DNA of 61,964 bases from positions 1-61,964 of the forward strand of contig JAJZXF010000006.1 in NCBI GenBank assembly GCA_021802485.1. The letters run 5' to 3'. Under the pieces are notes generated by a model, which was not told the DNA's origin, did no database searches, and saw nothing but the letters and a program-made list of their open reading frames with translations. This DNA is from Actinomycetes bacterium (GTDB lineage: Bacteria > Actinomycetota > Acidimicrobiia > Acidimicrobiales > JAJZXF01). How positions within the stretch are numbered: position 1 is the first letter of the stretch; each line of letters starts with the position of its first letter. Below are positions 5,728 through 18,766 of this stretch, in pieces. The position numbers were made by a program, and so were the translations under genes.

Positions 5728-8700
5728 GTGCTCGACGTGAACGAATTTGACAGGCTAAGAATCGGGCTTGCGACCGCTGACTCCATCCGGAGCTGGTCCA
5801 AGGGTGAGGTGAAGAAGCCCGAGACGATCAACTACAGGACGTTGCGTCCAGAAAAGGACGGCCTGTTCTGCGAGAAGATCTTCGGACCCACGAAGGACTG
5901 GGAGTGCTACTGCGGTAAGTACAAGCGGGTTCGTTTCAAGGGAATTATCTGCGAGCGCTGCGGCGTCGAGGTCACGCGTTCGAAGGTGCGAAGGGAGCGC
6001 ACGGGCCACATCGAACTTGCTGCTCCGGTGGTGCATATATGGTACCTGAAGGGAACCCGGTCCTGGCTCGCATACCTTCTAATGGGCACCGACGCGAGGG
6101 AAGAGCTGAAGGCCAAGCAGCTGGAGAAGGTTATCTACTTCGCCGCGTATCTTGTTACGCACGTCGACGAGGAACGACTTCACGTTGACCTCCCAACAAT
6201 CGAAGAAGATGTCGAGCGCGAGATAGCAGAGATCAATCAGCTTGCTGAGCGCGATGCGAACAAGAAGCTGGAACAGCTGGAGCAGGAGCTCGCAGAGATC
6301 GAGCGCTCCGGTGCGAAGGAGGCTGAGATCCGCGTCCGCGACAAGAACGTGCGTCGCGAGATCGAAACTCTGCATGAAAGAGCTCAGGAAGAGATCAACG
6401 AGCTGCAGCGGGCCTTCGAAGCGCTCAAGGGGCTTCACTCGCGCAAGATCATCGAAGATGAGCTGCTTTGGAGGGAACTCAAGGTCCGCTACGGTGATTA
6501 CTTCGAAGGTGGGATGGGCGCAGAGGCAATAGCCCAGTTGATCGATCGGATTGACTTGAACGCTGAGGAGGTCAAACTCCGCCAGGCGATCGACGGCAGC
6601 GATGGACGCAAGCCCCTTCCGGTTCAAAGGCGCCAAAAGGCGATCAAGCGCCTGAAGATCGTATCCGCTTTCAACTGCACCGATCAACAGGGGAGGCGGC
6701 TCAACGACCCGCGGGCGATGATCCTGGAGGCTGTGCCTGTGATCCCTCCCGATCTGCGGCCAATGGTGCAACTGGATGGCGGCCGCTTCGCTACTTCGGA
6801 CCTGAATGATCTCTACCGGAGGGTGATCAACAGGAACAACCGTTTGCAGCGTCTACTGGATCTCGAAGCCCCGGAGATCATAATCAACAACGAAAAGAGA
6901 ATGCTCCAAGAGGCAGTGGACGCGTTGTTCGACAACGGACGTCGCGGCCGGCCAGTGAGCGGTCCGGGAAATCGTCCTCTGAAGAGCCTGTCCGACATGC
7001 TGAAGGGAAAGCAAGGGCGTTTCCGCCAGAATCTCCTTGGCAAGCGCGTCGATTACTCAGGGCGATCTGTGATCGTCGTTGGGCCTACGCTGAAGCTACA
7101 TCAGTGTGGACTCCCGAAGCAGATGGCCCTCGAGCTCTTCAAGCCCTTTGTTATGAAGCGTCTCGTGGACGTAGAGCTCGCGCAGAACATCAAGTCAGCG
7201 AAGCGCATGGTGGAGCGCCAGCGGATCCAGGTGTGGAACGTGCTGGAAGAGGTGATCAGAGAGCACCCAGTTCTGTTGAACCGCGCTCCAACCCTGCACC
7301 GGCTTGGGATCCAGGCCTTCGAGCCCGTCCTAGTGGAGGGCAAGGCAATTCAGATCCACCCGCTGGTCTGCACCGCGTTCAATGCGGACTTCGACGGAGA
7401 CCAGATGGCTGTGCACCTGCCGTTGTCTGCTGAGGCACAGGCAGAAGCGCGGGTGCTGATGCTGAGCGCCAATAACGTGCTCTCGCCAGCGACCGGTAGG
7501 CCTATAACCGTTCCCACCCAGGACATGGTGTTCGGCACGTACTACCTGACCGTGGAGGCGAAGGGCGCAAAGGGCGAAGGGCGGGTGTTCCGCCGCCTTG
7601 CCGAGGTTGAGGCGGCCTACGATGCGGGCGATGTGGATCTTCACGCGAAGATCACGTTCCGCCCGCCAGCATCCGCTGGTGTTGGTGTAAGTGCGACCGA
7701 CCCCGATCTGCAAGCACTCTTGGACGCGGATAGGAGTGGGGTGTCCGCTCCAGGAATGGACAGCCCACTTGGCGGCGACACAAAGGCGGTCGAGTTAGCG
7801 GCTGCAGCGGCCGCTAGCGCGGCGGGTGCGCGGGAGATCGAAACGACGCCAGGCAGGCTGTTCTTTAATGCAGCGCTACCTTATGGGTTTCGATTCATCA
7901 ACGACATCATTGGGCGCAAGAATACGAGCATTACGAGCATCGTCGAGGAGATCACGTCCAAGTACCCGCGCATAGTTGTAGCCCAGAGCCTGGATCGGAT
8001 CAAGGAGCTTGGCTTCAAGTACTCTACGAGATCTGGCCTCACAATCTCGATAGACGATGTCCGCACGCCACCCGAAAAGGCAGCGATCCTTGATCGTTAC
8101 GAGAAGGAGGCTGAGAAGGCGGAGATGCAGTTCAAGCGCGGCATCATCACAGACGATGAGCGGCGCCAGAAGGAGATCGAGATCTGGACCTCGGCTAACT
8201 CCGAGGTTGGTCGGGCTATGGAGACCACGCTGTCCGCGATGAGCTTCAATCCTCTGGACATGATGGTGGGCTCAGGCGCACGAGGAAATCCCCAGCAGGT
8301 TCGCCAGATCGCAGGAATGAAGGGCTTGGTCTCCAACCCGCGCGGTGAGATGATTCCGCGTCCGATCAAGTCGTCATTTCGTGAGGGCCTTTCGGTTCTG
8401 GAGTACTTCATCTCTACCCATGGCGCTCGCAAGGGGCTTGCGGATACGGCCCTCAGGACCGCGGACTCCGGCTACCTGACCCGACGTCTGGTTGACGTTG
8501 CTCAAGAGATGATTGTGAGGGAGCTCGACTGCGAGACGGCGCGGGGCATCTGGATCGACGGTGTGGTGCCAGATGAGCCGGGTAAGCGGCGCTACCTTGA
8601 GACGCGCGTCTACGGGCGGGTTCTCCTGGAGGAGGTTGTGCTCCAAGATGGTTCGCGCATTGCTCCGGGGACGCTTCTTGGTGATGATCACGTCGCTTTG

Positions 8701-9909
8701 ATGCGTGAGGACCCGGTTGTTGACCGGGTACGGGTGCGTTCCGTGCTGACGTGTGAGTCCAAGCACGGGGTCTGTGCAACCTGTTACGGGCAGTCGCTCG
8801 CAACCGGGCGCATCATTGAGATGGGCGAGGCGGTCGGCGTCATAGCTGCTCAGTCGATCGGTGAGCCAGGAACGCAGCTCACTATGCGGACGTTCCATAC
8901 CGGCGGCATCGTTGGAGAGGACATCACGCACGGTCTTCCAAGAGTGGTCGAGCTCTTCGAGGCTCGTACCCCCAAAGGTGCTGCGATTCTCGCGCACACG
9001 TCGGGTGTCGTTAGGGTATCGACCGACGATACTTCCCGCCAGGTGACTGTCATCGGTGATGACGGGACGGAGACCGAGTATGCGATAGCGCCGAGAGCTC
9101 ACCTTGAGGTGGCCGATGGCGCAGAGGTTGTCGCTGGCGACCAGCTGGTCGAGGGTCCGAAGGACCCGAAGGAACTTCTAGAGGTGAAGGGCATCCGAGA
9201 TACCCAGCAGTACCTAGTGGGGGAGGTGCAGAAGGTCTACAGAGACCAGGGTGTGTCGATCCACGACAAGCACATCGAGTTGATCGTACGTCAGATGCTT
9301 CGCAGAGTCTCGGTTGCAGAACCTGGTGACTCGCCGTTCCTGCCGGGGGAGCGAGTGGACACGCAAGTGTATGCCGAGCAAAATCGCCAGCTTGTCCAGG
9401 ATGGTAAGCGTCCAGCAGAGGGACGGCCTGAGCTTATGGGGATCACCAAGGCTTCGCTGGCAACCGACTCGTGGCTCTCAGCAGCGAGCTTCCAGGAGAC
9501 CACGAGGGTCCTTACCGAGGCTGCAATCGAAGGTCGCTCCGACCAGTTGATTGGCTTGAAGGAGAACATCATCATCGGCAAGCTGATACCAGCTGGCTCC
9601 GGGATGACCAGCTACCGGTCGATTAACGTCGAGATGCCAGATGCCGAACCTATGCAGTTCTGGTCCTCGGAGATGGACGGGGAGGTGGACCCAGCTGCCT
9701 GGCTGCGTGACATCGGAGTGGACCGCGGCAATGGGGCCGACCCGCCAGACAGCCACGCTCTGTCCGAGGACACCGACGGGGTCGTAGGGAGTTCTGGGGT
9801 GCAAGCGGGTGAGGCGGGGATCTCTCCTCGCGGCGCGGATGCCGCTGAGGAAGGCGACGCGAGCGAGCCAGACCCCGAGCTGAATCGCGATCGTAAGCCC
9901 CTTCCGTAA
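5728..9909 (+). CDS. rpoC: RNA polymerase beta' subunit
   Basis: N-terminal Zn finger (CYCGKYK...CERC), catalytic [16 protein letters not shown]. Confidence 0.99.
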
Positions 9910-9917
9910 GGGAGGGG
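9898..9917 (+). terminator. Terminator-like hairpin overlapping the rpoC stop codon
   Basis: ccccttcc-GTAA-gggagggg: 8-bp stem with one G-U pair and a GNRA loop; no U-tract. Confidence 0.45.
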
Positions 9918-9988
9918 TCGAGGCCGCGGATAAGACAAGTACACACCAATCCGAGGAACTGTTGCACCCCTGGAGTAGTATCGATCAT

Positions 9989-10267
9989 ATGGTCGCAATA
10001 CCGGGTAGTCTGCCAGCAAGGTGTGAGCCCGTACGCACAGCGATCGTCCCGGTCATGTTATCGGGAGCCGACTACGGGCGAGCCCACGACGCTCACCACA
10101 TTGCAGCTGGTCTCTGGGGCGAGGCGGTCGACTGGGTGCATGCGGAATGGAAAGCGAAGCACAACCCAGGCAAGTACGGCATTCGAGCATTCCTCAGCTC
10201 GCTCCCACGCGAACAGCGCCTGCTTCATGTTCACACGACCGAGGCGATCGGATACGGCCTCTACGAG
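9989..10267 (+). pseudogene. Possible N-terminal fragment of a TnpB-like protein
   Basis: RTAIVPVMLSGADY..AHDAHH.AAGLWGEAVDW...LHVHTTEAI resembles TnpB N-terminal segments (LWNxxV...LHxHxxQA); no RuvC part present. Confidence 0.4.
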
Positions 10268-10298
10268 CCGAAGGACCGTTCTGTGATCCACTCGCCCT

Positions 10299-10481
10299 CT
10301 CGGCGCCCGGCGCTTTGCTTTCAACTGGGCACGCAGGCAGGTGACAGCCGACATGGACGCTAAGTTGGCAGACCCCGAGCACTCCTCGGTACCCTGGACC
10401 CTCGACGCCTTGCGCAAGAAGGCAAATGAGGTGAAGGACGAAGTCGCTCCGTGGTGGGCCGAGAACTCGCAGGGGTGCTAC
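10299..10481 (+). pseudogene. tnpB: IS607-family TnpB N-terminal fragment
   Basis: LGARRFAFNWARRQVTADMDAK...VPWTLDALRKKANEVKDEVAPWWAENSQGCY matches the actinobacterial IS607 TnpB motifs GARRFAFNW and KDEVAPWWAENSKEAY. Confidence 0.75.
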
Positions 10482-10919
10482 TTGGCTGTGATCGCTGACG
10501 TCGTCATGGGCCAGGAGCTCAAGAAGACCGGCGCAGGTAACCTCTTCACGGTCTTCGGTGAGGCCGATGTCGTGATCAAGGACGAAGATGATCAACTCAC
10601 TGTGATCCTCAACGGCGTCGACGTCTACGATCCGGACACCGGCGACATCCGAAGCAACCACGCCAGCCAAATTGCGCTGTGGATGATCGACACCGCCTAT
10701 AACGGCGAGTCGCACTTCGTGCGCCACTGCTACGTCACGGGTGGCCAGGACCTATACGCCCGACTGAAGAAGGCACTCAAGGCAGGCATCGACGAAGACG
10801 TCTGGCCATCACTCAATCGGACGGAGTCCCGACCGTTCCCCAAGCCCGACACCGGCAAGATCGCGGTCAAGGTCATCAACGACTACGGCCACGAGGTCGT
10901 CAAGGTCTTCCCCGTGTAA
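10482..10919 (+). pseudogene. C-terminal fragment of a type III R-M-like site-specific DNA methyltransferase (Mod)
   Basis: ELKKTGAGNLFTVFGE, GVDVYDP.TG, WMIDTAYNGESHFVRH, KIAVKVINDYGHEV are the conserved C-terminus of this Mod family; the catalytic DPPY/FxGxG region is absent. Confidence 0.75.
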
Positions 10920-10923
10920 GCCC

Positions 10924-13900
10924 ATGACTGAGTTCCAAACCCTGTCTAGGGGCTGGGATCATCTCGGCAACATCGAGCGGACGCTCGGAGACCTGCAGGG
11001 CGCCCGCACGGCGATCCACGAGCTGATTCAGAACGCCGACGACGCGCCGAGTGCGACGCGTATGCGTTTCCGTGTTGAGGGTGACCGGCTGGAAGTTTGG
11101 AACGACGGCGTCTTCGAACGCTGCGGCGACGTCGCATCGCCCGAGTGTGAGTGGCTCACTACACGAAGTCACCGGTGTGACTTTCACAGCTTCCGAAAGA
11201 TGGCCAGCGGCAACAAGCGCAACCGTCCGGGTACCACGGGTGCGTTCGGCGTGGGGTTCACTGCTGTCTACCAGTTCACGGATCGGCCTGAGCTGTTGTC
11301 GAACGGCGAGCACTGGATCGTCGACGAGATGGCAAGCGAGGACCGGCGCATCAGCCGGTTCGAAGGCCCGACAGTAGGCGAGGGCACGACGTTCAGGCTG
11401 CCTTGGGCACGCGAGCAATCCCTCTTCCGCGAAGCCGTACGGCAGGAGCCCATCACCGAGGCATTCGTCTCGACCTTCATGGACGAGCTCGTGACCACGG
11501 TTCCGGCCGCCATGCCCTTTCTAAAGAAGCTTCGCTCCATCGAGCTCGTCGACTCGAATCAGGCACGAACATTCACGCGGTCGGCGACTTCGGGTCGGGT
11601 GTCCGTTGTGGGTGATCAAAAGGAGCGGTTCGAGTGGGTCCTCCTCGAAGATGACTTTGAGGAGGAGGCAAGACGTTTGAAGAGTGCCCATCCCGGCGTC
11701 ATCGAGGAGGGGCGCTCTTCGCGCGTAAGTGTGGCGGTTCCGATGGGCGAGGGCGAGGCGCCTGGTCTGCTGTACGCGACGCTGCCAACAGAGGAGCCGT
11801 CGCACCTTCCGGTCTTGATTAACGCAGACTTCGTGTCGGCCTCTGACCGGAAGCGCGTCCGGTTTGACGATTCACCCGTGAGCCAATGGAACCGGCAGGC
11901 CGTGCGGACCGGAGCGCATCTCGTCGCACACAACCTGGTCCGATTAGCCGAGGCCGTAGGTGACGCCAAGTTCGTCGCGGTCGTGACCGTCGCTCGCGAT
12001 CTCGCTGGGCGGAGCGATAGCGAACGCATCGACCCGGTATTCGAGGAGTTCTGGAATCAGATCAAAATAACGATCCCAGGAGCGGCGGTGGTGCCCGCCG
12101 AAACTGGCGGGCGCGCGACCACTCTCTTCGCTCATTTAATGCCTCTTCATTCCAAAGCGGTGGTGCCCGCCGAAACTGGCTGGCGCGCGACCCCCAATGC
12201 TGTGCGACTCTGGGCCCGTGATGCTGAGGTCGCAGCTGTCGACCTTCTCGGGGAGCTTGGTGTCCGGCTTGTCGACCGCAGCGTTAGGGCCAACTGGTAC
12301 GGGCTGCTTGGAGACGTGGCTGGACTTCGCAACCTGACAGTAGGCGACCTCGTCATGGCGCTACGGCAACGCGGTCTCACCGAGCGGTGGATGCAGACTG
12401 GCGCGACCGACAGCTTGAGCGATGACCGGGATCTCGCGTTGCTTTGGGGCCTCCTCGACTTCCTCCTCTCGGTCCCCGACCGGTCGAACCAAGACAACAG
12501 GCAGGCGCTCCTCGATTGTGCGGTGGCGCCAGGCTGGGACGGAGCGATCTGGCCGCTTCGACAAGTGGTCCGCTCGGATCAGGCGACGCAAGACCTTTTC
12601 GCCGATCTGGGCGTCGCCGCGGTCTTCTTGGACGAGAGTCGCCTCGAGCGTGCCGGCAGCCTTCTCGCAGACCACATCGCCGAAGCCACGACGGACCAGG
12701 CGCTCGGATGGGCGGAAGAGATCTTTGCTGCGAACGAGAGCGACATCTCTGCAGCAGACCGGCGTCGGCTCTTGTTGTGGTTCTTCGACAAGCACAAGAG
12801 CCTGAATGACGACGAGCTGCGTCGACTCGCGCACCTACCGATTTTCCCGACTGCTGCTGGCCCAAGAGCGCTCGTCGGCCTGGCCCTTCCCGGCGACTTC
12901 ACAGACGAACTTGGACTTGCCCAGCTCGTCGATGTCGAAGCCGCGCCAGAGATGGGCCCGTTTCTGGCGAAGCTCGGGGCGAAGACGCTCGACTTCTCCC
13001 ACTACTGCACGGACTTCGTTCCAGACGCCATCTCCAGAGGAGACATCCCCGAAGACACTCGTCTCCGACTTCTCGGCCTCCTTGCCCGGAAGTTCTCGGA
13101 GGTGCAGGACAACAGCGCCGTGTGTGACACACTCGGCCCGCTCCCCCTGGTGCCTTGCCGTGATCGCCAGTGGCGCACGGGCGACGAGGTCTACCTAGAC
13201 GACGACGTGCGGGTGATCGTCGGCGACGACATCAACGTGGCTACCACTCCGTCAGTCAACCCCACTGCCCACCGAGACCTCTTCGCCTGGCTCGGCGCGG
13301 CAAGCGCGCCACGTTCGCGGGACATCGAGGCCCGCTGTCAACAGTTGAGGTCCGGAGCCCGGAATCACCGATCAATTGCCGAGGCGATTGTGTCCCACGT
13401 CGGACATCGCTACGCCGCCGACTCCGATGCGGTCGTCGTTCAGTTTGCGCGCCTTCGCGAGATCCCATGGCTTCCGGCCGAAGGCGACACCGCTTTGAGA
13501 GGCCACCCCCCGAGCTCCTTGTTCGCCGCCTTCAGCAAGTACCTATTCGCGAGCCAAGCCCGATTCGTGGACCTCGCCCTCAAGGTTCAGCAGGACAACA
13601 GCGACTTCCTGAAGTGGCTCGGAGTCGTCGACCAACCCTCGCCGCAGCAGGTAGTCGACCATCTCTTGTGGTGTGTCGAGCGGGGTCGGCCCGTCAGTGA
13701 GGGGACGTGGATCTACCTTAACCAGCGAGCAGACGACCCCGCTCTCGACGCGCTGGAGGACCGTCCGTGCCTGCTCATCGCGGAGACCGGAACGTACGTA
13801 AAGCCCTGTCAGGTGTACTGGGGAGGACACCCCTTCGGGAGGTTCCGGTACCAGCTCGGGCCGAAGTTTGCCGAGTACAGGGCGCTGCTCAAGCGCCTTC

Positions 13901-16011
13901 GGGTGCGTCAGAACCCGGACCCAGCCGATGCCGTCGATGTCCTCCTCGATGTCGCAGCCCATCATGGTGGAGAGCAAGCCCCACTATTGGAGGAGGACAG
14001 GCGGGTCGTCAACGCGTGCTGGCGGCTCTTGTCCGCTGGCCTTGAGTCAGAAGACCTCATGGGAACACAGCTTCGGGACCTCACGTCCGCAGAGGTTGTC
14101 CTCGATGGTCGCGGTTGGTTGAGCAAGCCGACCGGGGTCTTCTTTCGCGACGTCCAAACGCTGGCCGAGCGGTTCGGACCCGCGGTACAGGGCCAGCTCA
14201 TCGATCGCCCGGATGGTCAGTGGCGAGCTCTCGCTGCTGCTGGCGTTCGGGACCTCAGTGACGCTGTCGAGACGCGAATCCTCGAAGAGGAAGACGCCGA
14301 TGACGGCGGCGTCGTCGTCGCTCGGCTGACCGATCGCAGGCGCCTGATTTTAAGGGTCCTGGCCGCTGATGACGTCGAGGCTGCCGAGAAGCTCAACGAG
14401 TTCGAGGCCCGCGTTCGCCTCGTTCGCTTGACCAGGCTTGTCATCGATCAGGCCATCGATCTCGGTGGATCAGTTCACCGCACGCAGCCGTTCGACCGAG
14501 GGGCGCTCTACCGCCCCGAAGTAGGCGCTCTCTGTTACGTCGAGTCAAGCCAGCCCGCGAGTTGGGTGGAGGTGGCCCGCGAGCTGACCCGAGCGATCAA
14601 GGTCGACGGATCGCGAGCGCCCCACGTTGCCGGGGCGCTACGAGGTGTACTTGCGGCTGCAAGCGATGAGGAAGCTCGGCGTGAACTCGACGAGCTCGGC
14701 TACCGAGCCGTGGACGAGGCAAGTGCCGCGGAAGCCGAACCGACTGTCGCGTCTGGATTCGGTGGCGGGCCGTCACCGGACGACCAGGATCAAGACTCAA
14801 AGGCCTCCAATGCCGCGGACGCGGACGGCGAGCCGGACCGCGAGGGCTTACCCGCTCAGGCAGCGTGCGGCTCCGACGGGACAGAGGAGCCTTCAGCAGA
14901 GGGTGCTGGTGGCACCAGGGCGATCGGACGTACCGGGAGCTCGCGGGGCGGCGACGCCGGAAACGGCACGGCGGAGACCGTGGCTGGAACGGCCAGCTCG
15001 GACGCGACCGGAGGCTCCGCTACGGCGGGGACTTCTAGCAAGGCGGGCACGGCGGACTCAAGCAACCGGCGTCACGCGTCGGCGACGTCGACCCAGACCC
15101 GTCTGCGGTCCTACGTCAGCCCGAAGGGTCCTGCCAGCCAGTCTCCGTACGACGGGTCCGATGAGGACGAAGAGGTTGAACGCGCTGGTGTCGCAGCGGT
15201 GCTGGACTACGAGCGGATGCAGGGTCGAGTACCGAAGGAGATGCCACCCCTCAACCCCGGCTTCGACGTCCGAAGCGTCGACGCAGATGAGCGGGTCCGG
15301 TTTATCGAGGTCAAGTCCAGCGCGGCCGTCTGGGGCGAGCGTGGTGTCGCGATGTCAAGCATGCAGTTCGACACAGCCCTCAAGAAGCGAGAGGACTTTT
15401 GGCTCTACGTTGTTGATCGGGCGCTGTCGAAGCCTACCGTCCACCCCATCAACGACCCCGCATCGAAGGTTGATCAATACTTCTTCGACGATGGCTGGCA
15501 GGCCGTTGTCGAATTCGAACACCTCGAGCGCCCACCCTTCGAACCGATCGACCTGTTCCCCGCTCCGAGCGCCCCAACCGGCGCAGTGCCATTCTTCGAC
15601 GCGCACAATGATGAGATGGGGGATCCGTCGGCCGCCGATGGGTGGGTCATGTGGGACGGCTACCACTCGGGCCGTGCCGACTTTTTCGCAGTTCGGATCG
15701 CTGGCTACGGTCTCGGTCTACCCTTTTACGGAGGTGCGGCTCTCGTCGAGCCGCTCGACCGCGAGCCCGAGGACGACGAACTGGTCTGCGTCATGCTCCA
15801 CAACCAGATTGATCCAGACTCGAGGTCCGCTCGCTCACTGAGGCGCTGGACCCCAGAGCGGGACCTGAACGGCAAGCACCTAGGCCTGCGGCTCACGACC
15901 GACGGCAGCGTCGAGCCACTAACCGTCACCGCTCCTGGGGATCTGGTGGTCCTTGGTGCCGTGCGGGCGAAGGCGCGACCAACGGACCTCCGAGCGTCAG
16001 AGGACCAATGA
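10924..16011 (+). CDS. Sacsin-like GHKL ATPase / DUF3883 (NOV_C) nuclease multidomain protein, Tiamat-like candidate defence protein
   Basis: GHKL motifs ELIQNADDA, WNDG, GAFGVGF, GTTFRLP; sacsin-like internal P-x3-G repeats; DUF3883 motif NPGFDVRS...FIEVKS near the C-terminus; terminal S24-like domain. Confidence 0.85.
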   Translation: MTEFQTLSRGWDHLGNIERTLGDLQGARTAIHELIQNADDAPSATRMRFRVEGDRLEVWNDGVFERCGDVASPECEWLTTRSHRCDFHSFRKMASGNKRNRPGTTGAFGVGFTAVYQFTDRPELLSNGEHWIVDEMASEDRRISRFEGPTVGEGTTFRLPWAREQSLFREAVRQEPITEAFVSTFMDELVTTVPAAMPFLKKLRSIELVDSNQARTFTRSATSGRVSVVGDQKERFEWVLLEDDFEEEARRLKSAHPGVIEEGRSSRVSVAVPMGEGEAPGLLYATLPTEEPSHLPVLINADFVSASDRKRVRFDDSPVSQWNRQAVRTGAHLVAHNLVRLAEAVGDAKFVAVVTVARDLAGRSDSERIDPVFEEFWNQIKITIPGAAVVPAETGGRATTLFAHLMPLHSKAVVPAETGWRATPNAVRLWARDAEVAAVDLLGELGVRLVDRSVRANWYGLLGDVAGLRNLTVGDLVMALRQRGLTERWMQTGATDSLSDDRDLALLWGLLDFLLSVPDRSNQDNRQALLDCAVAPGWDGAIWPLRQVVRSDQATQDLFADLGVAAVFLDESRLERAGSLLADHIAEATTDQALGWAEEIFAANESDISAADRRRLLLWFFDKHKSLNDDELRRLAHLPIFPTAAGPRALVGLALPGDFTDELGLAQLVDVEAAPEMGPFLAKLGAKTLDFSHYCTDFVPDAISRGDIPEDTRLRLLGLLARKFSEVQDNSAVCDTLGPLPLVPCRDRQWRTGDEVYLDDDVRVIVGDDINVATTPSVNPTAHRDLFAWLGAASAPRSRDIEARCQQLRSGARNHRSIAEAIVSHVGHRYAADSDAVVVQFARLREIPWLPAEGDTALRGHPPSSLFAAFSKYLFASQARFVDLALKVQQDNSDFLKWLGVVDQPSPQQVVDHLLWCVERGRPVSEGTWIYLNQRADDPALDALEDRPCLLIAETGTYVKPCQVYWGGHPFGRFRYQLGPKFAEYRALLKRLRVRQNPDPADAVDVLLDVAAHHGGEQAPLLEEDRRVVNACWRLLSAGLESEDLMGTQLRDLTSAEVVLDGRGWLSKPTGVFFRDVQTLAERFGPAVQGQLIDRPDGQWRALAAAGVRDLSDAVETRILEEEDADDGGVVVARLTDRRRLILRVLAADDVEAAEKLNEFEARVRLVRLTRLVIDQAIDLGGSVHRTQPFDRGALYRPEVGALCYVESSQPASWVEVARELTRAIKVDGSRAPHVAGALRGVLAAASDEEARRELDELGYRAVDEASAAEAEPTVASGFGGGPSPDDQDQDSKASNAADADGEPDREGLPAQAACGSDGTEEPSAEGAGGTRAIGRTGSSRGGDAGNGTAETVAGTASSDATGGSATAGTSSKAGTADSSNRRHASATSTQTRLRSYVSPKGPASQSPYDGSDEDEEVERAGVAAVLDYERMQGRVPKEMPPLNPGFDVRSVDADERVRFIEVKSSAAVWGERGVAMSSMQFDTALKKREDFWLYVVDRALSKPTVHPINDPASKVDQYFFDDGWQAVVEFEHLERPPFEPIDLFPAPSAPTGAVPFFDAHNDEMGDPSAADGWVMWDGYHSGRADFFAVRIAGYGLGLPFYGGAALVEPLDREPEDDELVCVMLHNQIDPDSRSARSLRRWTPERDLNGKHLGLRLTTDGSVEPLTVTAPGDLVVLGAVRAKARPTDLRASEDQ
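12085..12192 (+). repeat. 36-bp direct repeat / 36-bp unique AT-rich spacer / 36-bp repeat (CRISPR-like single unit, in frame within a CDS)
   Basis: gcggtggtgcccgccgaaactggc(g/t)ggcgcgcgacc at 12085-12120 and 12157-12192 (1 mismatch); spacer 12121-12156 has 14/36 G+C; repeat 1 contains the hairpin gcccgcc-gaaact-ggcgggc. Confidence 0.9.
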
Positions 16012-16018
16012 TGCCGAT

Positions 16019-18766
16019 ATGACCGTCGGTGGACTGTCAGCGCCCGTGCTCGAGGGTGACGCACTTGCAGCAGTGCGCCATCGAGGTACGCATATACAGA
16101 TCATCGCCGCTGCCGGGTCCGGCAAGACGGAGGTGGTTAGCCAACGAGTCGTCGACCTTCTGGCGGAGGGCGTTGCAGCTCGCGGGATCGTCGCGTTCAC
16201 GTTCACCCAACGCGCGGCGGAGGAGCTGAAGAGTCGTGTCAACCGACGCGTCGAGGAGCGTCTCGGACGAACCGCACTCGATCTTCTCGGCGGACTCTTC
16301 GTCGGCACCATCCACGCCTACTGCTTCAGGCTCCTTCAGCAGCATGTACCCCGCTTCGAGACCTACGACATCCTCGACGACAACCAGCTCACGGCCTTTC
16401 TAACGAGGGAGGCGAATCGCCTCGCGATCCGCCAGCTCGATCCGGCGGGCCGCGATCGACTCTTCGTTGCGATTAAAGCCTTCCTGAAGAGCGTCGATGT
16501 TGTCGAGAACGAACTCCTCGATCCAACCGCTATGCCCGAGCCGTTCCAGACCGTGCTGACCGACTACCTCGCAGCGCTGGAGCGGTATCGCTTGCTTACG
16601 TACGGACAGCAGATCGTCAGCGCTGTCCGGGAGCTCGAGCGACCAGAAGTAGCCGCCACTGTTCGCGCCGAGCTGCGGCACCTGATCGTCGACGAATATC
16701 AAGACGTCAATCCTTCACAGGAGCGCCTAATTGAGCTCCTCGCCGGCCCCGCTGTCCACCTGTGCGTCGTGGGCGACGACGACCAGGCGATCTATCAGTG
16801 GCGGGGCTCGGACGTTGCGAACATCGTGAGCTTCACCGACCGATACCCAGACGTCACTACGTTCACCATTGCGAAGAACCGGCGGAGCAGACCCGACATC
16901 ATCCGGCGGGCAAACCAGTTCGCGGCCACCATTCCCGGTCGGCTCGACAAGACAATGGAGACCTATCGCCCAGCGGGCGGCGGGCCCGAGATCGTGGTGT
17001 GGAATTCGCCGACCGAGCTCGACGAGGCCGGCTGGATCGCGCAGCTCATCCTCGACCTCGCGAACGAGGGCGTCCCTTATCGCGACATCGCCATCCTCGT
17101 CCGCACCAGCGCGGCGTACCCACGGCTCGTCGATCAGCTCGCGACCTTCGACATCCCAGTCCAGCCCGGAGGAAGGACGGGGCTGTTCGAACAACGAGAG
17201 GCTGAAGTACTCGGCAAGGCCGTTGTCTGGCTGACAGGGCTCGACTGGCGCTCCGGATTCGCACGAGGCACGCCGGTCACCGACGACAGTCTGCTCGACG
17301 ACTTCCAACGCGTCTTTCAGCTCGACCTCGCAGGGCGCACCCGGGTCGGCCGCTTCCTTCGGCAGTGGAAGGCTGTCGTCCCACGAACCGATCGTCGAGC
17401 TGACCTCGTGGGTGAGTTCTACGAGCTCTTGGCCGAGCTCGAAGTCCGGGAGTGGGACCTTGCCGACGCACGCCAGGTGAACCGCCTGGGCACGTTGGCA
17501 CGCTTCTCATCGCTGCTCACCGACTACGAGTCGGTTCGACGTCGTGCCCGTCCGGACGCGGACATTGCCGGCGAGCAAGTCGGCGGCGAGGATCGCGGCA
17601 CGTGGTATTACAAGAACCTCGGCCTCCACATCATCAACTACGCGGGCGGCGCCTACGAAGGCTTTGACGGCGAACCCGACTTTGCACTGAACGCCGTCGA
17701 TCTCACGACCGTCCACCGGGCCAAGGGCCTCGAATGGCCTGTCGTGTTCGTGCCGTCGCTGACAGCGAACCGCTTTCCGACGACGAAGGCGGGACAGCGC
17801 CAACAGTGGCTCGTGCCACGAGAATGGTTTGCTGCAGCCCGGTACGAGGGCGGCGACGCCGACGAACGCAGGCTCTTCTACGTCGCCACGACCCGCGCTC
17901 GGGACTTGCTGTCCCTCTCGCGGCACGGCCGCGTCAACGTCCAGGCTGCCGCACCGAGCCCCTACTGGCTCGAACACAGAGACCTTGAAGTCGACCCCGG
18001 CAACATTGCCGCGTCCAACATCGAAGCCGTCCACGTGTCCGATGAGGACCCGATCTCGGTCAGCTACAACGAGATGGCCTCGTTCCTCGACTGTGCGCAG
18101 GCCTACCGGCTCCGCGCCCTCCTCGGTTTCGAGCCTCGCCTCGCCCCGGAACTCGGCTACGGGAAGGCTGTTCACCACGTGCTCCGGACGGTGGCCGAAG
18201 CGACGAAGGAAACAGGAGCCGTGCCGACACCCTCGGACGTCGACGCGATTCTCGCCTCAAGCTTCTTCTTGCCCACCGCTAACAAGCCAGCCCATCGCCA
18301 GCTGAAGGAGGCCGCCCGGCGCCTCGTCAACGAGTACACGGCCTCGCACGGCGACGACCTTTTCCGAATCTGGGAGACCGAGCGACCCTTCGAGCTCCAT
18401 CTCGACGGCGTCACCATCAACGGCCGGGCCGACGTGATCCTCGACCGCGAGGGGGGCGTTGACACCGCGCTCGCCATCCTCGACTACAAGACTTCCACCA
18501 GCGCGATGTCAGAGCACGAGCTGCAGCTCCAAGTCTATGCCGACGCGGGTCGACGCGAGGGCCTTGACGTCCGGGCTGCCTACGTTCACGATCTCAAAGC
18601 CGGCGTTCGCTGCACAGTGCCGGTCGACCCAGCGGCGATCGATCAGGTAGAGCGTACGGTTACCGAGGCCGCGGTGCGGCTGCGCCAGCGCGACTACCAG
18701 CCGAACCCTGGGCCCCGCTGCCGACGTTGTGAAGTCCGCTTGGTCTGCCGTGCAGCCGTGCCGTAG
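16019..18766 (+). CDS. UvrD/REP-family SF1 helicase fused to a PD-(D/E)XK (AddB/Cas4-like, Fe-S) nuclease
   Basis: AAAGSGKT, VDEYQD, GDDDQAIYQWRG, TVHRAKGLEW, ERRLFYVATTRA; C-terminal GRAD..ILDYKT..QLQVYA with Cys set C...CxxC-x5-C. ATG 16019 preferred over 15953. Confidence 0.92.
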   Translation: MTVGGLSAPVLEGDALAAVRHRGTHIQIIAAAGSGKTEVVSQRVVDLLAEGVAARGIVAFTFTQRAAEELKSRVNRRVEERLGRTALDLLGGLFVGTIHAYCFRLLQQHVPRFETYDILDDNQLTAFLTREANRLAIRQLDPAGRDRLFVAIKAFLKSVDVVENELLDPTAMPEPFQTVLTDYLAALERYRLLTYGQQIVSAVRELERPEVAATVRAELRHLIVDEYQDVNPSQERLIELLAGPAVHLCVVGDDDQAIYQWRGSDVANIVSFTDRYPDVTTFTIAKNRRSRPDIIRRANQFAATIPGRLDKTMETYRPAGGGPEIVVWNSPTELDEAGWIAQLILDLANEGVPYRDIAILVRTSAAYPRLVDQLATFDIPVQPGGRTGLFEQREAEVLGKAVVWLTGLDWRSGFARGTPVTDDSLLDDFQRVFQLDLAGRTRVGRFLRQWKAVVPRTDRRADLVGEFYELLAELEVREWDLADARQVNRLGTLARFSSLLTDYESVRRRARPDADIAGEQVGGEDRGTWYYKNLGLHIINYAGGAYEGFDGEPDFALNAVDLTTVHRAKGLEWPVVFVPSLTANRFPTTKAGQRQQWLVPREWFAAARYEGGDADERRLFYVATTRARDLLSLSRHGRVNVQAAAPSPYWLEHRDLEVDPGNIAASNIEAVHVSDEDPISVSYNEMASFLDCAQAYRLRALLGFEPRLAPELGYGKAVHHVLRTVAEATKETGAVPTPSDVDAILASSFFLPTANKPAHRQLKEAARRLVNEYTASHGDDLFRIWETERPFELHLDGVTINGRADVILDREGGVDTALAILDYKTSTSAMSEHELQLQVYADAGRREGLDVRAAYVHDLKAGVRCTVPVDPAAIDQVERTVTEAAVRLRQRDYQPNPGPRCRRCEVRLVCRAAVP

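What the first reader, a model, noticed from the sequence alone, without database searches (positions are those of the whole stretch)
12085..12192. CRISPR-like repeat-spacer-repeat (36/36/36 bp) inside a protein-coding gene: probable natural ectopic spacer acquisition
Seen: a palindromic 36-bp sequence (hairpin gcccgcc-gaaact-ggcgggc) is duplicated with one mismatch around a 36-bp insert, actctcttcgctcatttaatgcctcttcattccaaa. The insert has 14/36 G+C in a strongly GC-rich gene. The net gain of 72 bp keeps the frame (AVVPAETGGRAT-TLFAHLMPLHSK-AVVPAETGWRAT). Removing one repeat plus the insert leaves AVVPAETG(G/W)RATPNAV, which fits the protein's own recurring P-x3-G motif, so the repeat looks like native coding sequence. 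The insert's reverse strand reads WNEEALNERRE in one frame, compatible with foreign coding DNA. Known: Cas1-Cas2 integration duplicates a repeat-length target around a spacer-length fragment and can occur off-target at repeat-like hairpins. Inference: a fixed off-target integration (a nascent neo-array) that added a foreign 12-aa peptide to a defence protein, or else a cryptic mini-array yielding one guide RNA. No cas genes are in this window.
Basis: partly seen in the sequence, partly recalled or inferred. Interest (0 to 1): 0.85.

Follow-up and report, generated by a model that had tools for sequence, protein, structure and literature searches.

The report
Spacer-like 72-bp insertion in defence gene
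A defence gene of an uncultured mine-drainage bacterium carries a recent in-frame 72-bp insertion built exactly like one CRISPR repeat-spacer-repeat unit, and the same genome holds several more such units, which suggests that CRISPR spacer-integration machinery sometimes inserts DNA into ordinary genes in nature.

Summary
The window has a 36-nt repeat at 12085-12120, a 36-nt insert at 12121-12156 (39% GC), and the repeat again at 12157-12192 with one mismatch. The unit lies in frame in a 1695-aa Tiamat TmtA-like gene. All 17 aligned homologues lack exactly these 24 residues. Three separately assembled runs carry the unit unchanged.

It is not unique. The genome has four more near-perfect units with spacing 74-76, and six decayed candidates with spacing 66-77. 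None was found outside a true CRISPR array in 2 x 0.79 Mb of two related genomes. One unit, in an MFS transporter gene, has an empty-site allele in public data. Its insert is an exact 38-nt copy of another contig. A second insert matches 33/36 nt elsewhere, next to TTA.

The geometry equals type I-G CRISPR arrays of related Acidimicrobiales (36-37-nt repeats, 35-38-nt spacers). However, this genome bin holds only a type I-E system (29-nt repeat) and no I-G genes. No protospacer was found for the window's insert, and the duplicated targets do not resemble I-G repeats.

Best reading (about 0.55): off-target integration by an I-G-type Cas4/1-Cas2 integrase. The enzyme is inferred, not shown.

The parts
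10924..16011 (+). Host gene: Tiamat TmtA-like defence protein, 1695 aa, intact ORF
   Evidence: ORF and translation. Pfam SACS (residues 28-134, 72.2 bits) and NOV_C/DUF3883 (1418-1508, 57 bits). PADLOC TmtA PDLC03969, 1213.9 bits, with the alignment split into two stretches and the listed best stretch starting at residue 410, just after the insertion.
12085..12120 (+). Copy 1 of the duplicated 36-bp target (codons AVVPAETGGRAT)
12093..12112 (+). Palindrome GCCCGCC-GAAACT-GGCGGGC inside copy 1. The same place in copy 2 (12165-12184) is weakened by the G-to-T mismatch at 12181.
   Evidence: -12.6 kcal/mol, z -2.17. Mismatch position read.
12121..12156 (+). 36-bp insert, 39% GC, source unknown (codons TLFAHLMPLHSK)
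   Evidence: Absent from 17 of 17 aligned homologues. No donor found.
12157..12192 (+). Copy 2 of the duplicated target (AVVPAETGWRAT), one mismatch to copy 1
15953..18766 (+). Context only: neighbouring UvrD-type helicase fused to a PD-(D/E)XK nuclease
   Evidence: Pfam. PADLOC GajB/RTasHel-like helicase hits.
5728..9909 (+). Context only: rpoC (RNA polymerase beta-prime) directly upstream
   Evidence: Pfam RNA_pol_Rpb1 domains 1-5.

Best explanation
The unit is the scar of an integrase-type insertion. The two strands of tmtA were joined to a preformed 36-bp DNA fragment at points 36 bp apart. Gap repair then copied the 36-bp target on both sides. Because 72 bp is 24 codons and the insert has no stop in that frame, the gene stayed open and gained 12 duplicated and 12 new residues.

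The enzyme that best fits is a type I-G (Cas4/Cas1-Cas2) CRISPR adaptation complex acting off-target. It would be present in some cells of this population, or on a mobile element, but is not in the genome bin.

Shown: the structure, its derived state, its support by separate assemblies, its recurrence in this genome, self-derived inserts in two other units, and polymorphism of one unit.

Inferred: the enzyme, and the order of chemical steps, which follow established knowledge of Cas1-Cas2 integration.
For: 1. Derived insertion. 17 of 17 aligned homologues (41-77% identity) lack exactly one repeat plus the insert.

2. Real DNA. Logan contigs of three runs from one study, each assembled alone, span 11400-12900 with 0 differences.

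3. Recurrence. A genome-wide scan found further non-tandem repeat-insert-repeat units. C61:4623 has repeat/insert lengths of 39/37, C25:24985 has 37/38, C140:75945 has 35/40 and C149:15835 has 50/24, with spacings 74-76. Six decayed candidates have spacings 66-77, among them C19:14764 at 36/36 and C101:21104 at 36/41. There were 14 raw hits at spacing 66-77, of which I dropped 3 as coding or low-complexity repeats (C146, C79, C97).

4. Control. The same scan on the first 792 kb of G014 and of G037 gave 0 such units outside G014's true CRISPR array, which gave 28 hits at spacing 72-77.

5. Copy-paste of spacer-sized pieces. The C25 insert is an exact 38-nt copy of C130:76-113 with unrelated flanks. 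The C101 insert matches C140:78679-78714 at 33/36 with sharp borders and a 5' TTA.

6. Polymorphism. P0039 equals the filled MFS allele P0034 with 0 mismatches but lacks exactly the 25 residues, and 11 of 11 further homologues lack them too.

7. Geometry. Type I-G arrays of related genomes have 36-37-nt repeats and 35-38-nt spacers, period 71-74. Cas4g/Cas1g scored 778 bits against a cut-off of 560. Geobacter I-U/I-G Cas4/1-Cas2 integrates mostly 36-bp spacers with a TTN PAM (PMC6547450, passages read).

8. Junctions. The C25 unit shows 1 nt and 0 nt of microhomology, as expected for ligation of a preformed piece.
Against: - The bin (97% complete) has one Cas1, of type I-E, with a 29-nt repeat.
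- None of the five cas ORFs of at least 200 aa of the G039 I-G operon has a tblastn hit at E <= 1e-5. No I-G array was found.
- The same-genus genome G001 (89% complete) has no Cas1.
- No protospacer was found for the window's insert in any collection.
- 0 of 5 duplicated targets score against a covariance model of six I-G repeats, with filters off and E <= 10. Only this unit has a significant hairpin.
- The C25 donor has no TTN on either side, so 1 of 2 known donors has the PAM.
- C149 (50/24) does not fit a 36-37-bp ruler. In C140 the first 15 nt of the insert match the downstream flank at 10/15, which a preformed foreign piece does not explain.
- The control genomes are near-complete assemblies, whereas G000 is a fragmented bin.
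Confidence: 0.55

Rival explanations
1. A Cas1-independent process made these units. Candidates are replication template switching (the nascent strand copies about 36 nt elsewhere and re-primes about 36 nt upstream) or an unrecognised integrase with its own ruler.
For: No I-G genes are in the bin. The targets do not resemble I-G repeats. The total added length (72-76) is tighter than either part, with C149 at 50/24 and C140 showing partial homology of insert and flank. Both known donors are chromosomal self DNA.
Against: No known template-switch process gives a constant duplication of about 36 bp. The C25 junctions show 1 and 0 nt of microhomology. The donor matches are 36 and 38 nt with sharp ends, which is the modal I-G spacer length. 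One donor has TTN. Two related genomes show none of these units in 1.58 Mb.
Confidence: 0.25
2. The resident type I-E Cas1-Cas2 made the insertion with aberrant geometry at a site that lacks its repeat anchors.
For: It is the only adaptation module seen in the genome. The target here has a GC-rich hairpin, as I-E repeats do.
Against: The I-E unit is 29 + about 32 nt, a period of 61 in relative G037. The scan found no non-tandem unit at spacing 58-64 other than coding repeats. Spacer length in I-E is fixed by the complex at 32-33 nt (recalled, not from a call).
Confidence: 0.06
3. The unit is an assembly or binning artefact.
For: The genome is a fragmented metagenome bin with clear assembler artefacts elsewhere: exact 127-nt repeats 10 nt apart, and a poly-C stretch next to a run of N on C53.
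Against: Three runs assembled separately with another assembler give the identical sequence. The one mismatch leaves shared stretches of 24 and 11 nt, too short to create a loop at k = 31 (my reasoning). For the sister unit in C25, both alleles exist as distinct proteins in public data.
Confidence: 0.03
4. The unit is a working one-spacer mini-array that yields a guide RNA.
For: It has repeat-spacer-repeat form, and copy 1 has a hairpin.
Against: It lies inside sense-strand coding sequence, with no leader. There is no Rfam CRISPR repeat family match. The only Cas6 present is Cas6e, whose repeat is different. The mismatch weakens the hairpin in copy 2.
Confidence: 0.03

Closest known systems
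Off-target (non-canonical) Cas1-Cas2 spacer integration, 'neo-CRISPR' units (Nivala, Shipman and Church 2018, Nat Microbiol 3:310)
   Same: A spacer-sized fragment is inserted outside an array and flanked by a duplication of repeat length. Such a unit is proposed as a seed of new arrays.
   Different: I saw that work only as cited (PMC7054753, PMC6698737, bioRxiv 10.1101/148544). It used E. coli overproducing type I-E Cas1-Cas2 and, per the bioRxiv paper, gave circumstantial evidence in two other species. Here the units are natural and have type I-G geometry. They lie in frame in protein genes, number five or more in one genome, and one is polymorphic. No cognate cas genes are in the bin.
Type I-G (formerly I-U) CRISPR adaptation by Cas4/Cas1-Cas2 (Almendros et al. 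2019, PMC6547450)
   Same: Predominant spacer length of 36 bp and a TTN PAM. Related genomes have 36-37-nt repeats and 35-38-nt spacers. The window unit is 36/36, and one donor here is preceded by TTA.
   Different: The repeats here are ordinary coding sequence that does not match I-G repeats. There are only two copies, and no leader or cas genes nearby.
Target-site duplications of transposons and casposons
   Same: Staggered joining followed by fill-in duplicates the target.
   Different: Known duplications are 2-15 bp (recalled, not from a call), and the inserted element carries conserved ends. Here the duplications are 35-39 bp, and the inserts are unrelated to each other.
Templated short insertions by replication template switching (MMBIR, short-patch double illegitimate recombination; names recalled)
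   Same: Short ectopic stretches of self DNA are copied into a new site.
   Different: Those depend on microhomology and give variable sizes without a fixed flanking duplication. The C25 junctions have 1 and 0 nt of microhomology.
Tiamat defence system, TmtA
   Same: Full-length match to the PADLOC TmtA model, with a sacsin-like ATPase N-terminus and a NOV_C/DUF3883 C-terminus.
   Different: It carries a 24-residue insertion at residues 388-411 that no aligned homologue has.

Membership tests
Cas1-Cas2 off-target integration product | Repeat-length direct duplication flanking a spacer-length insert | tested here: met
   36/36/36 with one mismatch. This equals the modal 36-nt repeat plus 36-nt spacer of I-G arrays in relatives.
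Cas1-Cas2 off-target integration product | Derived state: the empty site exists in relatives | tested here: met
   17 of 17 aligned homologues have one copy and no insert. No near-identical empty allele of this gene was found; the closest homologue is 75% identical over residues 200-700.
Cas1-Cas2 off-target integration product | A Cas1-Cas2 module with matching ruler in the same genome | tested here: not met
   Only type I-E with a 29-nt repeat is present. No I-G gene is in the bin. The feature is met only at order level: type I-G arrays lie next to a fused or strong Cas1 in 6 of 40 relatives.
Cas1-Cas2 off-target integration product | Insert traceable to a protospacer with the system's PAM | tested here: inconclusive
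   Window insert: 0 hits in viral, metagenome and genome contigs, phages, plasmids and 400 genomes of the order. Sister units: two donors were found, one with TTN.
Cas1-Cas2 off-target integration product | Target resembles the cognate repeat or leader | tested here: not met
   0 of 5 targets hit the I-G repeat model. Only the window unit has a significant hairpin. No shared leader motif was seen by eye.
Bona fide CRISPR array | Three or more conserved repeats with a leader and adjacent or cognate cas genes | tested here: not met
Two copies only, inside an ORF. No Rfam CRISPR repeat family match.
Tiamat TmtA | Full-length match to the TmtA profile with ATPase N-terminus and DUF3883 C-terminus | tested here: met
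   PDLC03969, 1213.9 bits. Pfam SACS and NOV_C. Defence activity itself cannot be tested with these tools.
Transposable-element footprint | Short target duplication and inserts that share element termini | tested here: not met
   The duplications are 35-50 bp. The five inserts share no ends and have no further copies, except for the C25 donor.
Coding tandem repeat | The whole period is repeated, so the insert is similar to the next or previous segment | tested here: not met
   The insert is 33% and 17% identical to the adjacent segments.

The most novel reading that the evidence does not exclude
A wild bacterial population is undergoing ongoing copy-paste mutagenesis. Spacer-sized (36-40 bp) pieces of self and foreign DNA are inserted genome-wide with 36-bp target duplications, creating in-frame protein insertions, including one in a defence gene. 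The genome lacks the cognate CRISPR adaptation genes. The agent would therefore be either an unrecognised integrase or an I-G module acting in trans from a mobile element.
Probability: 0.2. Interest if true: 0.85.

Novelty: new variant of a known kind. Interest (0 to 1): 0.68.

Why it matters
Off-target spacer integration has been shown in over-expressing E. coli. The literature I could read treats it mostly as a laboratory hazard or as a possible origin of new arrays.

If the reading here is right, this genome gives a natural record of the process. There are several independent events, and one is still polymorphic. Two have identifiable self donors, and two of the five near-perfect units are fixed in frame inside working genes.

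That would make CRISPR adaptation machinery a source of protein-coding insertions and of autoimmune-type self spacers in wild populations. It would also provide concrete sites at which target choice by Cas4/1-Cas2 can be tested.

If the enzyme is not Cas1-Cas2, the constant 36-bp ruler points to an unknown integration activity.

Tried and rejected
**Donor searches for the window insert.** All were negative.
- Central 24-mer in viral, metagenome and genome contigs.
- Left and right 20-mers in viral contigs.
- blastn against phages and plasmids gave only chance matches, E >= 4.
- 400 genomes of the same order at up to 3 mismatches gave nothing but the window itself.
- Central 24-mers of the C61 and C140 inserts in viral contigs gave 0 hits.
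- The collections may leave out records near the window's own genome, as the tool states.

**Other negative or uninformative steps.**
- Run X4 had low depth and uncovered stretches over the unit, so I draw no conclusion from it.
- The same-genus genome G001 is only 75-78% identical in DNA. Its intergenic regions do not align, so it gave no empty sites.
- The 60 relatives have no close TmtA homologue.
- A profile search with five Cas4g/Cas1g proteins listed only the top 120 of at least 8000 hits. None was marked as near the window's genome, so the search was uninformative.
- The covariance model of I-G repeats gave one borderline solitary hit, C104:9740-9774 (E 0.012). I did not follow it up, and it could be a terminator.
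- C19 unit: the homologues are 35-47% identical and the ORF here is N-terminally shorter. 0 of 10 homologues show a second WEYV copy, but the upstream region does not align, so the result is inconclusive.
- C139:9169 contains a promoter-like TTGACA...TATACG between its repeats and may be a regulatory duplication rather than an insertion.
- By eye I found no shared leader-like motif between I-G leaders and the flanks of the units.
- I made no structure prediction of the insertion site.
- Nivala et al. 2018 is not held. Its natural examples and its duplication lengths are cited from other papers or recalled. Supplements were not consulted.
Full report
**The observation.** Searches show a 36-nt sequence at 12085-12120 that recurs at 12157-12192 with a single mismatch (G at 12109, T at 12181). 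Exactly 36 nt lie between the copies. Neither copy can be extended by one base on either side. The insert has 39% G+C in a region of 63%. The unit lies in frame in ORF 10924-16011 (+) and reads AVVPAETGGRAT-TLFAHLMPLHSK-AVVPAETGWRAT. Repeat and insert are unique in the 2.86-Mb genome (G000, 152 contigs, 97% complete). Copy 1 contains a 7-bp GC palindrome with a 6-nt loop (-12.6 kcal/mol as DNA, z -2.17). The mismatch falls in the stem of copy 2.

**The unit is a derived insertion and it is real DNA.**
- A word-indexed search with residues 200-700 gave 32 homologues.
- I aligned the 17 with at least 36% identity and full coverage: P0002-P0017 and P0019. I left out P0018 (69% coverage) and P0020-P0033 (31% identity or less).
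- All 17 have a single AVVPxxxGxRAT segment and a gap of exactly 24 residues.
- Four runs of one study, labelled mine drainage metagenome, hold the stretch. In three of them a contig assembled from that run alone spans 11400-12900 with no difference. These runs may include the source of the bin, so they test the assembly, not the biology.

**The host gene.** The protein matches the PADLOC TmtA (Tiamat) model over its length (1213.9 bits). The alignment is split in two, and the listed best stretch starts at residue 410, just after the insertion. Pfam finds a sacsin-type N-terminus and a NOV_C/DUF3883 C-terminus. The gene lies between rpoC and a UvrD helicase fused to a PD-(D/E)XK nuclease.

**The unit is not alone.** A scan of G000 for direct repeats at fixed offsets found four more near-perfect, non-tandem units.

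| Unit | Repeat / insert (nt) | Spacing | Context |
|---|---|---|---|
| C61:4623 | 39 / 37 | 76 | nine codons before the stop of an IS1634-like transposase frame (family name is my recollection from the printed translation, no family search) |
| C25:24985 | 37 / 38 | 75 | in frame in a DHA2-type MFS transporter |
| C140:75945 | 35 / 40 | 75 | apparently intergenic |
| C149:15835 | 50 / 24 | 74 | starts at the last three codons and the stop of an enoyl-CoA hydratase gene |

- With a looser threshold (26 of 30) there were 14 hits at spacing 66-77. I dropped three as parts of coding or low-complexity repeats (C146, C79, C97). That leaves these five and six decayed candidates, among them C19:14764 at 36/36 and C101:21104 at 36/41.
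- Outside spacing 66-77, the range 40-130 held mainly coding repeats (periods 123 and 126), a few isolated pairs, and a poly-C/N artefact.
- As a control, the same scan on the first 792 kb of two related genomes gave no such unit. In G014, 28 hits at spacing 72-77 were all its true CRISPR array and 2 were low-complexity. In G037 there was 1 low-complexity hit.
- At G000's density about six units would be expected in 1.58 Mb (my arithmetic). The caveat is that the controls are near-complete assemblies and G000 is a fragmented bin.

**Two sister units show where inserts come from, and one is polymorphic.**
- The C25 insert is an exact 38-nt copy of C130:76-113. Nothing beyond those 38 nt matches.
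- C130 is ordinary chromosome, carrying amtB and a P-II gene.
- The junctions show 1 and 0 nt of microhomology plus one unmatched T.
- The insert of the decayed unit C101:21104 matches C140:78679-78714 at 33 of 36 with sharp borders (E 2.7e-7). That donor is preceded by TTA.
- For the MFS gene I aligned 13 of the 120 listed hits (758 in all). P0034 carries the unit. P0039 is identical to it, with 0 mismatches, but lacks exactly the 25 residues. The other 11 homologues lack them too.
- P0039 is not encoded in G000. It may be the ancestral allele or a precise deletion between the repeats. Either way the site is polymorphic.

**CRISPR-Cas content.**
- G000 has one Cas1. NCBIfam types the locus as I-E: Cas1e 336.7 bits, plus Cas2e, Cas6e and Cas5e.
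- One 29-nt repeat follows at the end of contig C98. No other array was found.
- Among 40 genomes of the same order, 10 have Cas1. Eight of these have strong matches, seven of them in open frames of 458-645 aa and G027 in one of 343 aa.
- Arrays beside six of these loci have 36- or 37-nt repeats. In G038, G039, G030 and G009 the spacers are 35-38 nt and the period is 71-74. The G027 array has a period of about 74, and the G014:C2 array has spacers of 20-37 nt.
- The published Geobacter I-U/I-G module integrates mostly 36-bp spacers with a TTN PAM (PMC6547450, passages read).
- The window's 36/36 unit and the 72-76 spacing class therefore match this system, not I-E (period 61).

**What does not fit.**
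- None of the five cas ORFs of at least 200 aa of the G039 operon has a tblastn hit in G000.
- A covariance model of six I-G repeats finds only a borderline solitary hit in G000. It scores none of the five duplicated targets.
- Only the window unit has a significant hairpin.
- No protospacer for the window insert was found anywhere (see Tried and rejected).
- One of the two known donors lacks TTN.
- C149 (50/24) does not fit a 36-nt ruler, and C140 shows partial insert-flank similarity.
- Rfam has no match for the repeat.

**Interpretation.**
- A constant duplication of about 36 bp around preformed pieces of 36-40 bp, at unrelated sites and with almost no microhomology, is the signature of staggered transesterification followed by gap repair.
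- The only known enzyme with this ruler is a Cas1-Cas2 complex of a 36-nt-repeat system, and type I-G is the common one in this order.
- I therefore rate off-target I-G-type integration at about 0.55. The module would lie outside the bin, either strain-variable, on a mobile element, or since lost.
- An unknown Cas1-independent process is the main rival (0.25).
- The positions of the five near-perfect units (a variable segment of TmtA, an MFS gene, two gene ends, one apparently intergenic stretch) look like random insertion filtered by selection.

**Novelty.**
- Off-target integration is known from E. coli over-producing I-E Cas1-Cas2 (Nivala et al. 2018). I saw that paper only through citing papers.
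- Three literature searches turned up no report of natural, polymorphic, in-frame units of I-G geometry in protein genes. That is only as strong as those searches and the held library.
- I class the finding as a new variant of a known kind.

Noticed in passing
G000 contigs C61:4623-4737, C25:24985-25096, C140:75945-76054, C149:15835-15958: Four more near-perfect repeat-insert-repeat units with spacing 74-76. The C25 unit is in frame in an MFS transporter gene, its insert is an exact copy of C130:76-113, and an empty-site allele (P0039) exists.
   Followed up: yes
G000 C19:14764, C101:21104, C101:28490, C70:25369, C140:38569, C139:9169: Six decayed candidate units (2-4 mismatches between repeats, spacing 66-77). 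The C101:21104 insert matches C140:78679-78714 at 33/36 next to TTA. C139 may be a regulatory duplication around a promoter-like site. C140:38569 abuts what looks by eye like the end of a tRNA gene.
   Followed up: partly
G000 C104:9740-9774: A solitary sequence with a GC hairpin followed by TTCATTGC, the best genome-wide hit of the I-G repeat model (22.3 bits, E 0.012). It could be a relic repeat or simply a terminator.
   Followed up: no
G000 C98:48232-49533 (L004 1402-2703): A type I-E cas locus (cas5e, cas6e, cas1e, cas2e) ends in one 29-nt repeat 17 nt before the contig end, so the array itself is unassembled.
   Followed up: partly
window 12121-12156, reverse strand: The reverse complement of the insert reads like a ribosome-binding site and gene start (AAGAGG, 6 nt, then ATG AGC GAA GAG AGT). 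This is compatible with a fragment of a low-GC foreign gene start, but it was seen by eye only.
   Followed up: no
window 5728-18766: The TmtA-like gene and a UvrD helicase-PD-(D/E)XK nuclease gene sit directly downstream of rpoC. No close TmtA homologue was found in 60 genomes of the same order, which suggests an acquired defence pair.
   Followed up: partly
G000 C113:5717, C73:4851, C66:13183, C56:69192 and others; C53:13550: Exact 127-nt repeats, two of them (C113:5717, C73:4851) only 10 nt apart, and a poly-C stretch next to a run of N. These look like assembler or scaffolding artefacts of the bin and are unrelated to the 72-76 class.
   Followed up: partly
G000, many contigs (e.g. C41:1721, C34:1742, C113:23270): A large family of coding repeats with a 126-bp (42-codon) period is spread over dozens of contigs and often lies at contig ends.
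   Followed up: no
P0034 and P0039 against G000 C25:25303-25629: Both short-contig MFS alleles share an N-terminus (first 12 residues) that is not in C25. This points to another structural difference or a contig break just upstream of the aligned part.
   Followed up: no
G014:C1:56-2250 (L037): A type I-G-like array of 30 repeats of 37 nt sits at the very start of the contig. About 30 nt after the last full repeat there is what looks by eye like one degenerate repeat.
   Followed up: no
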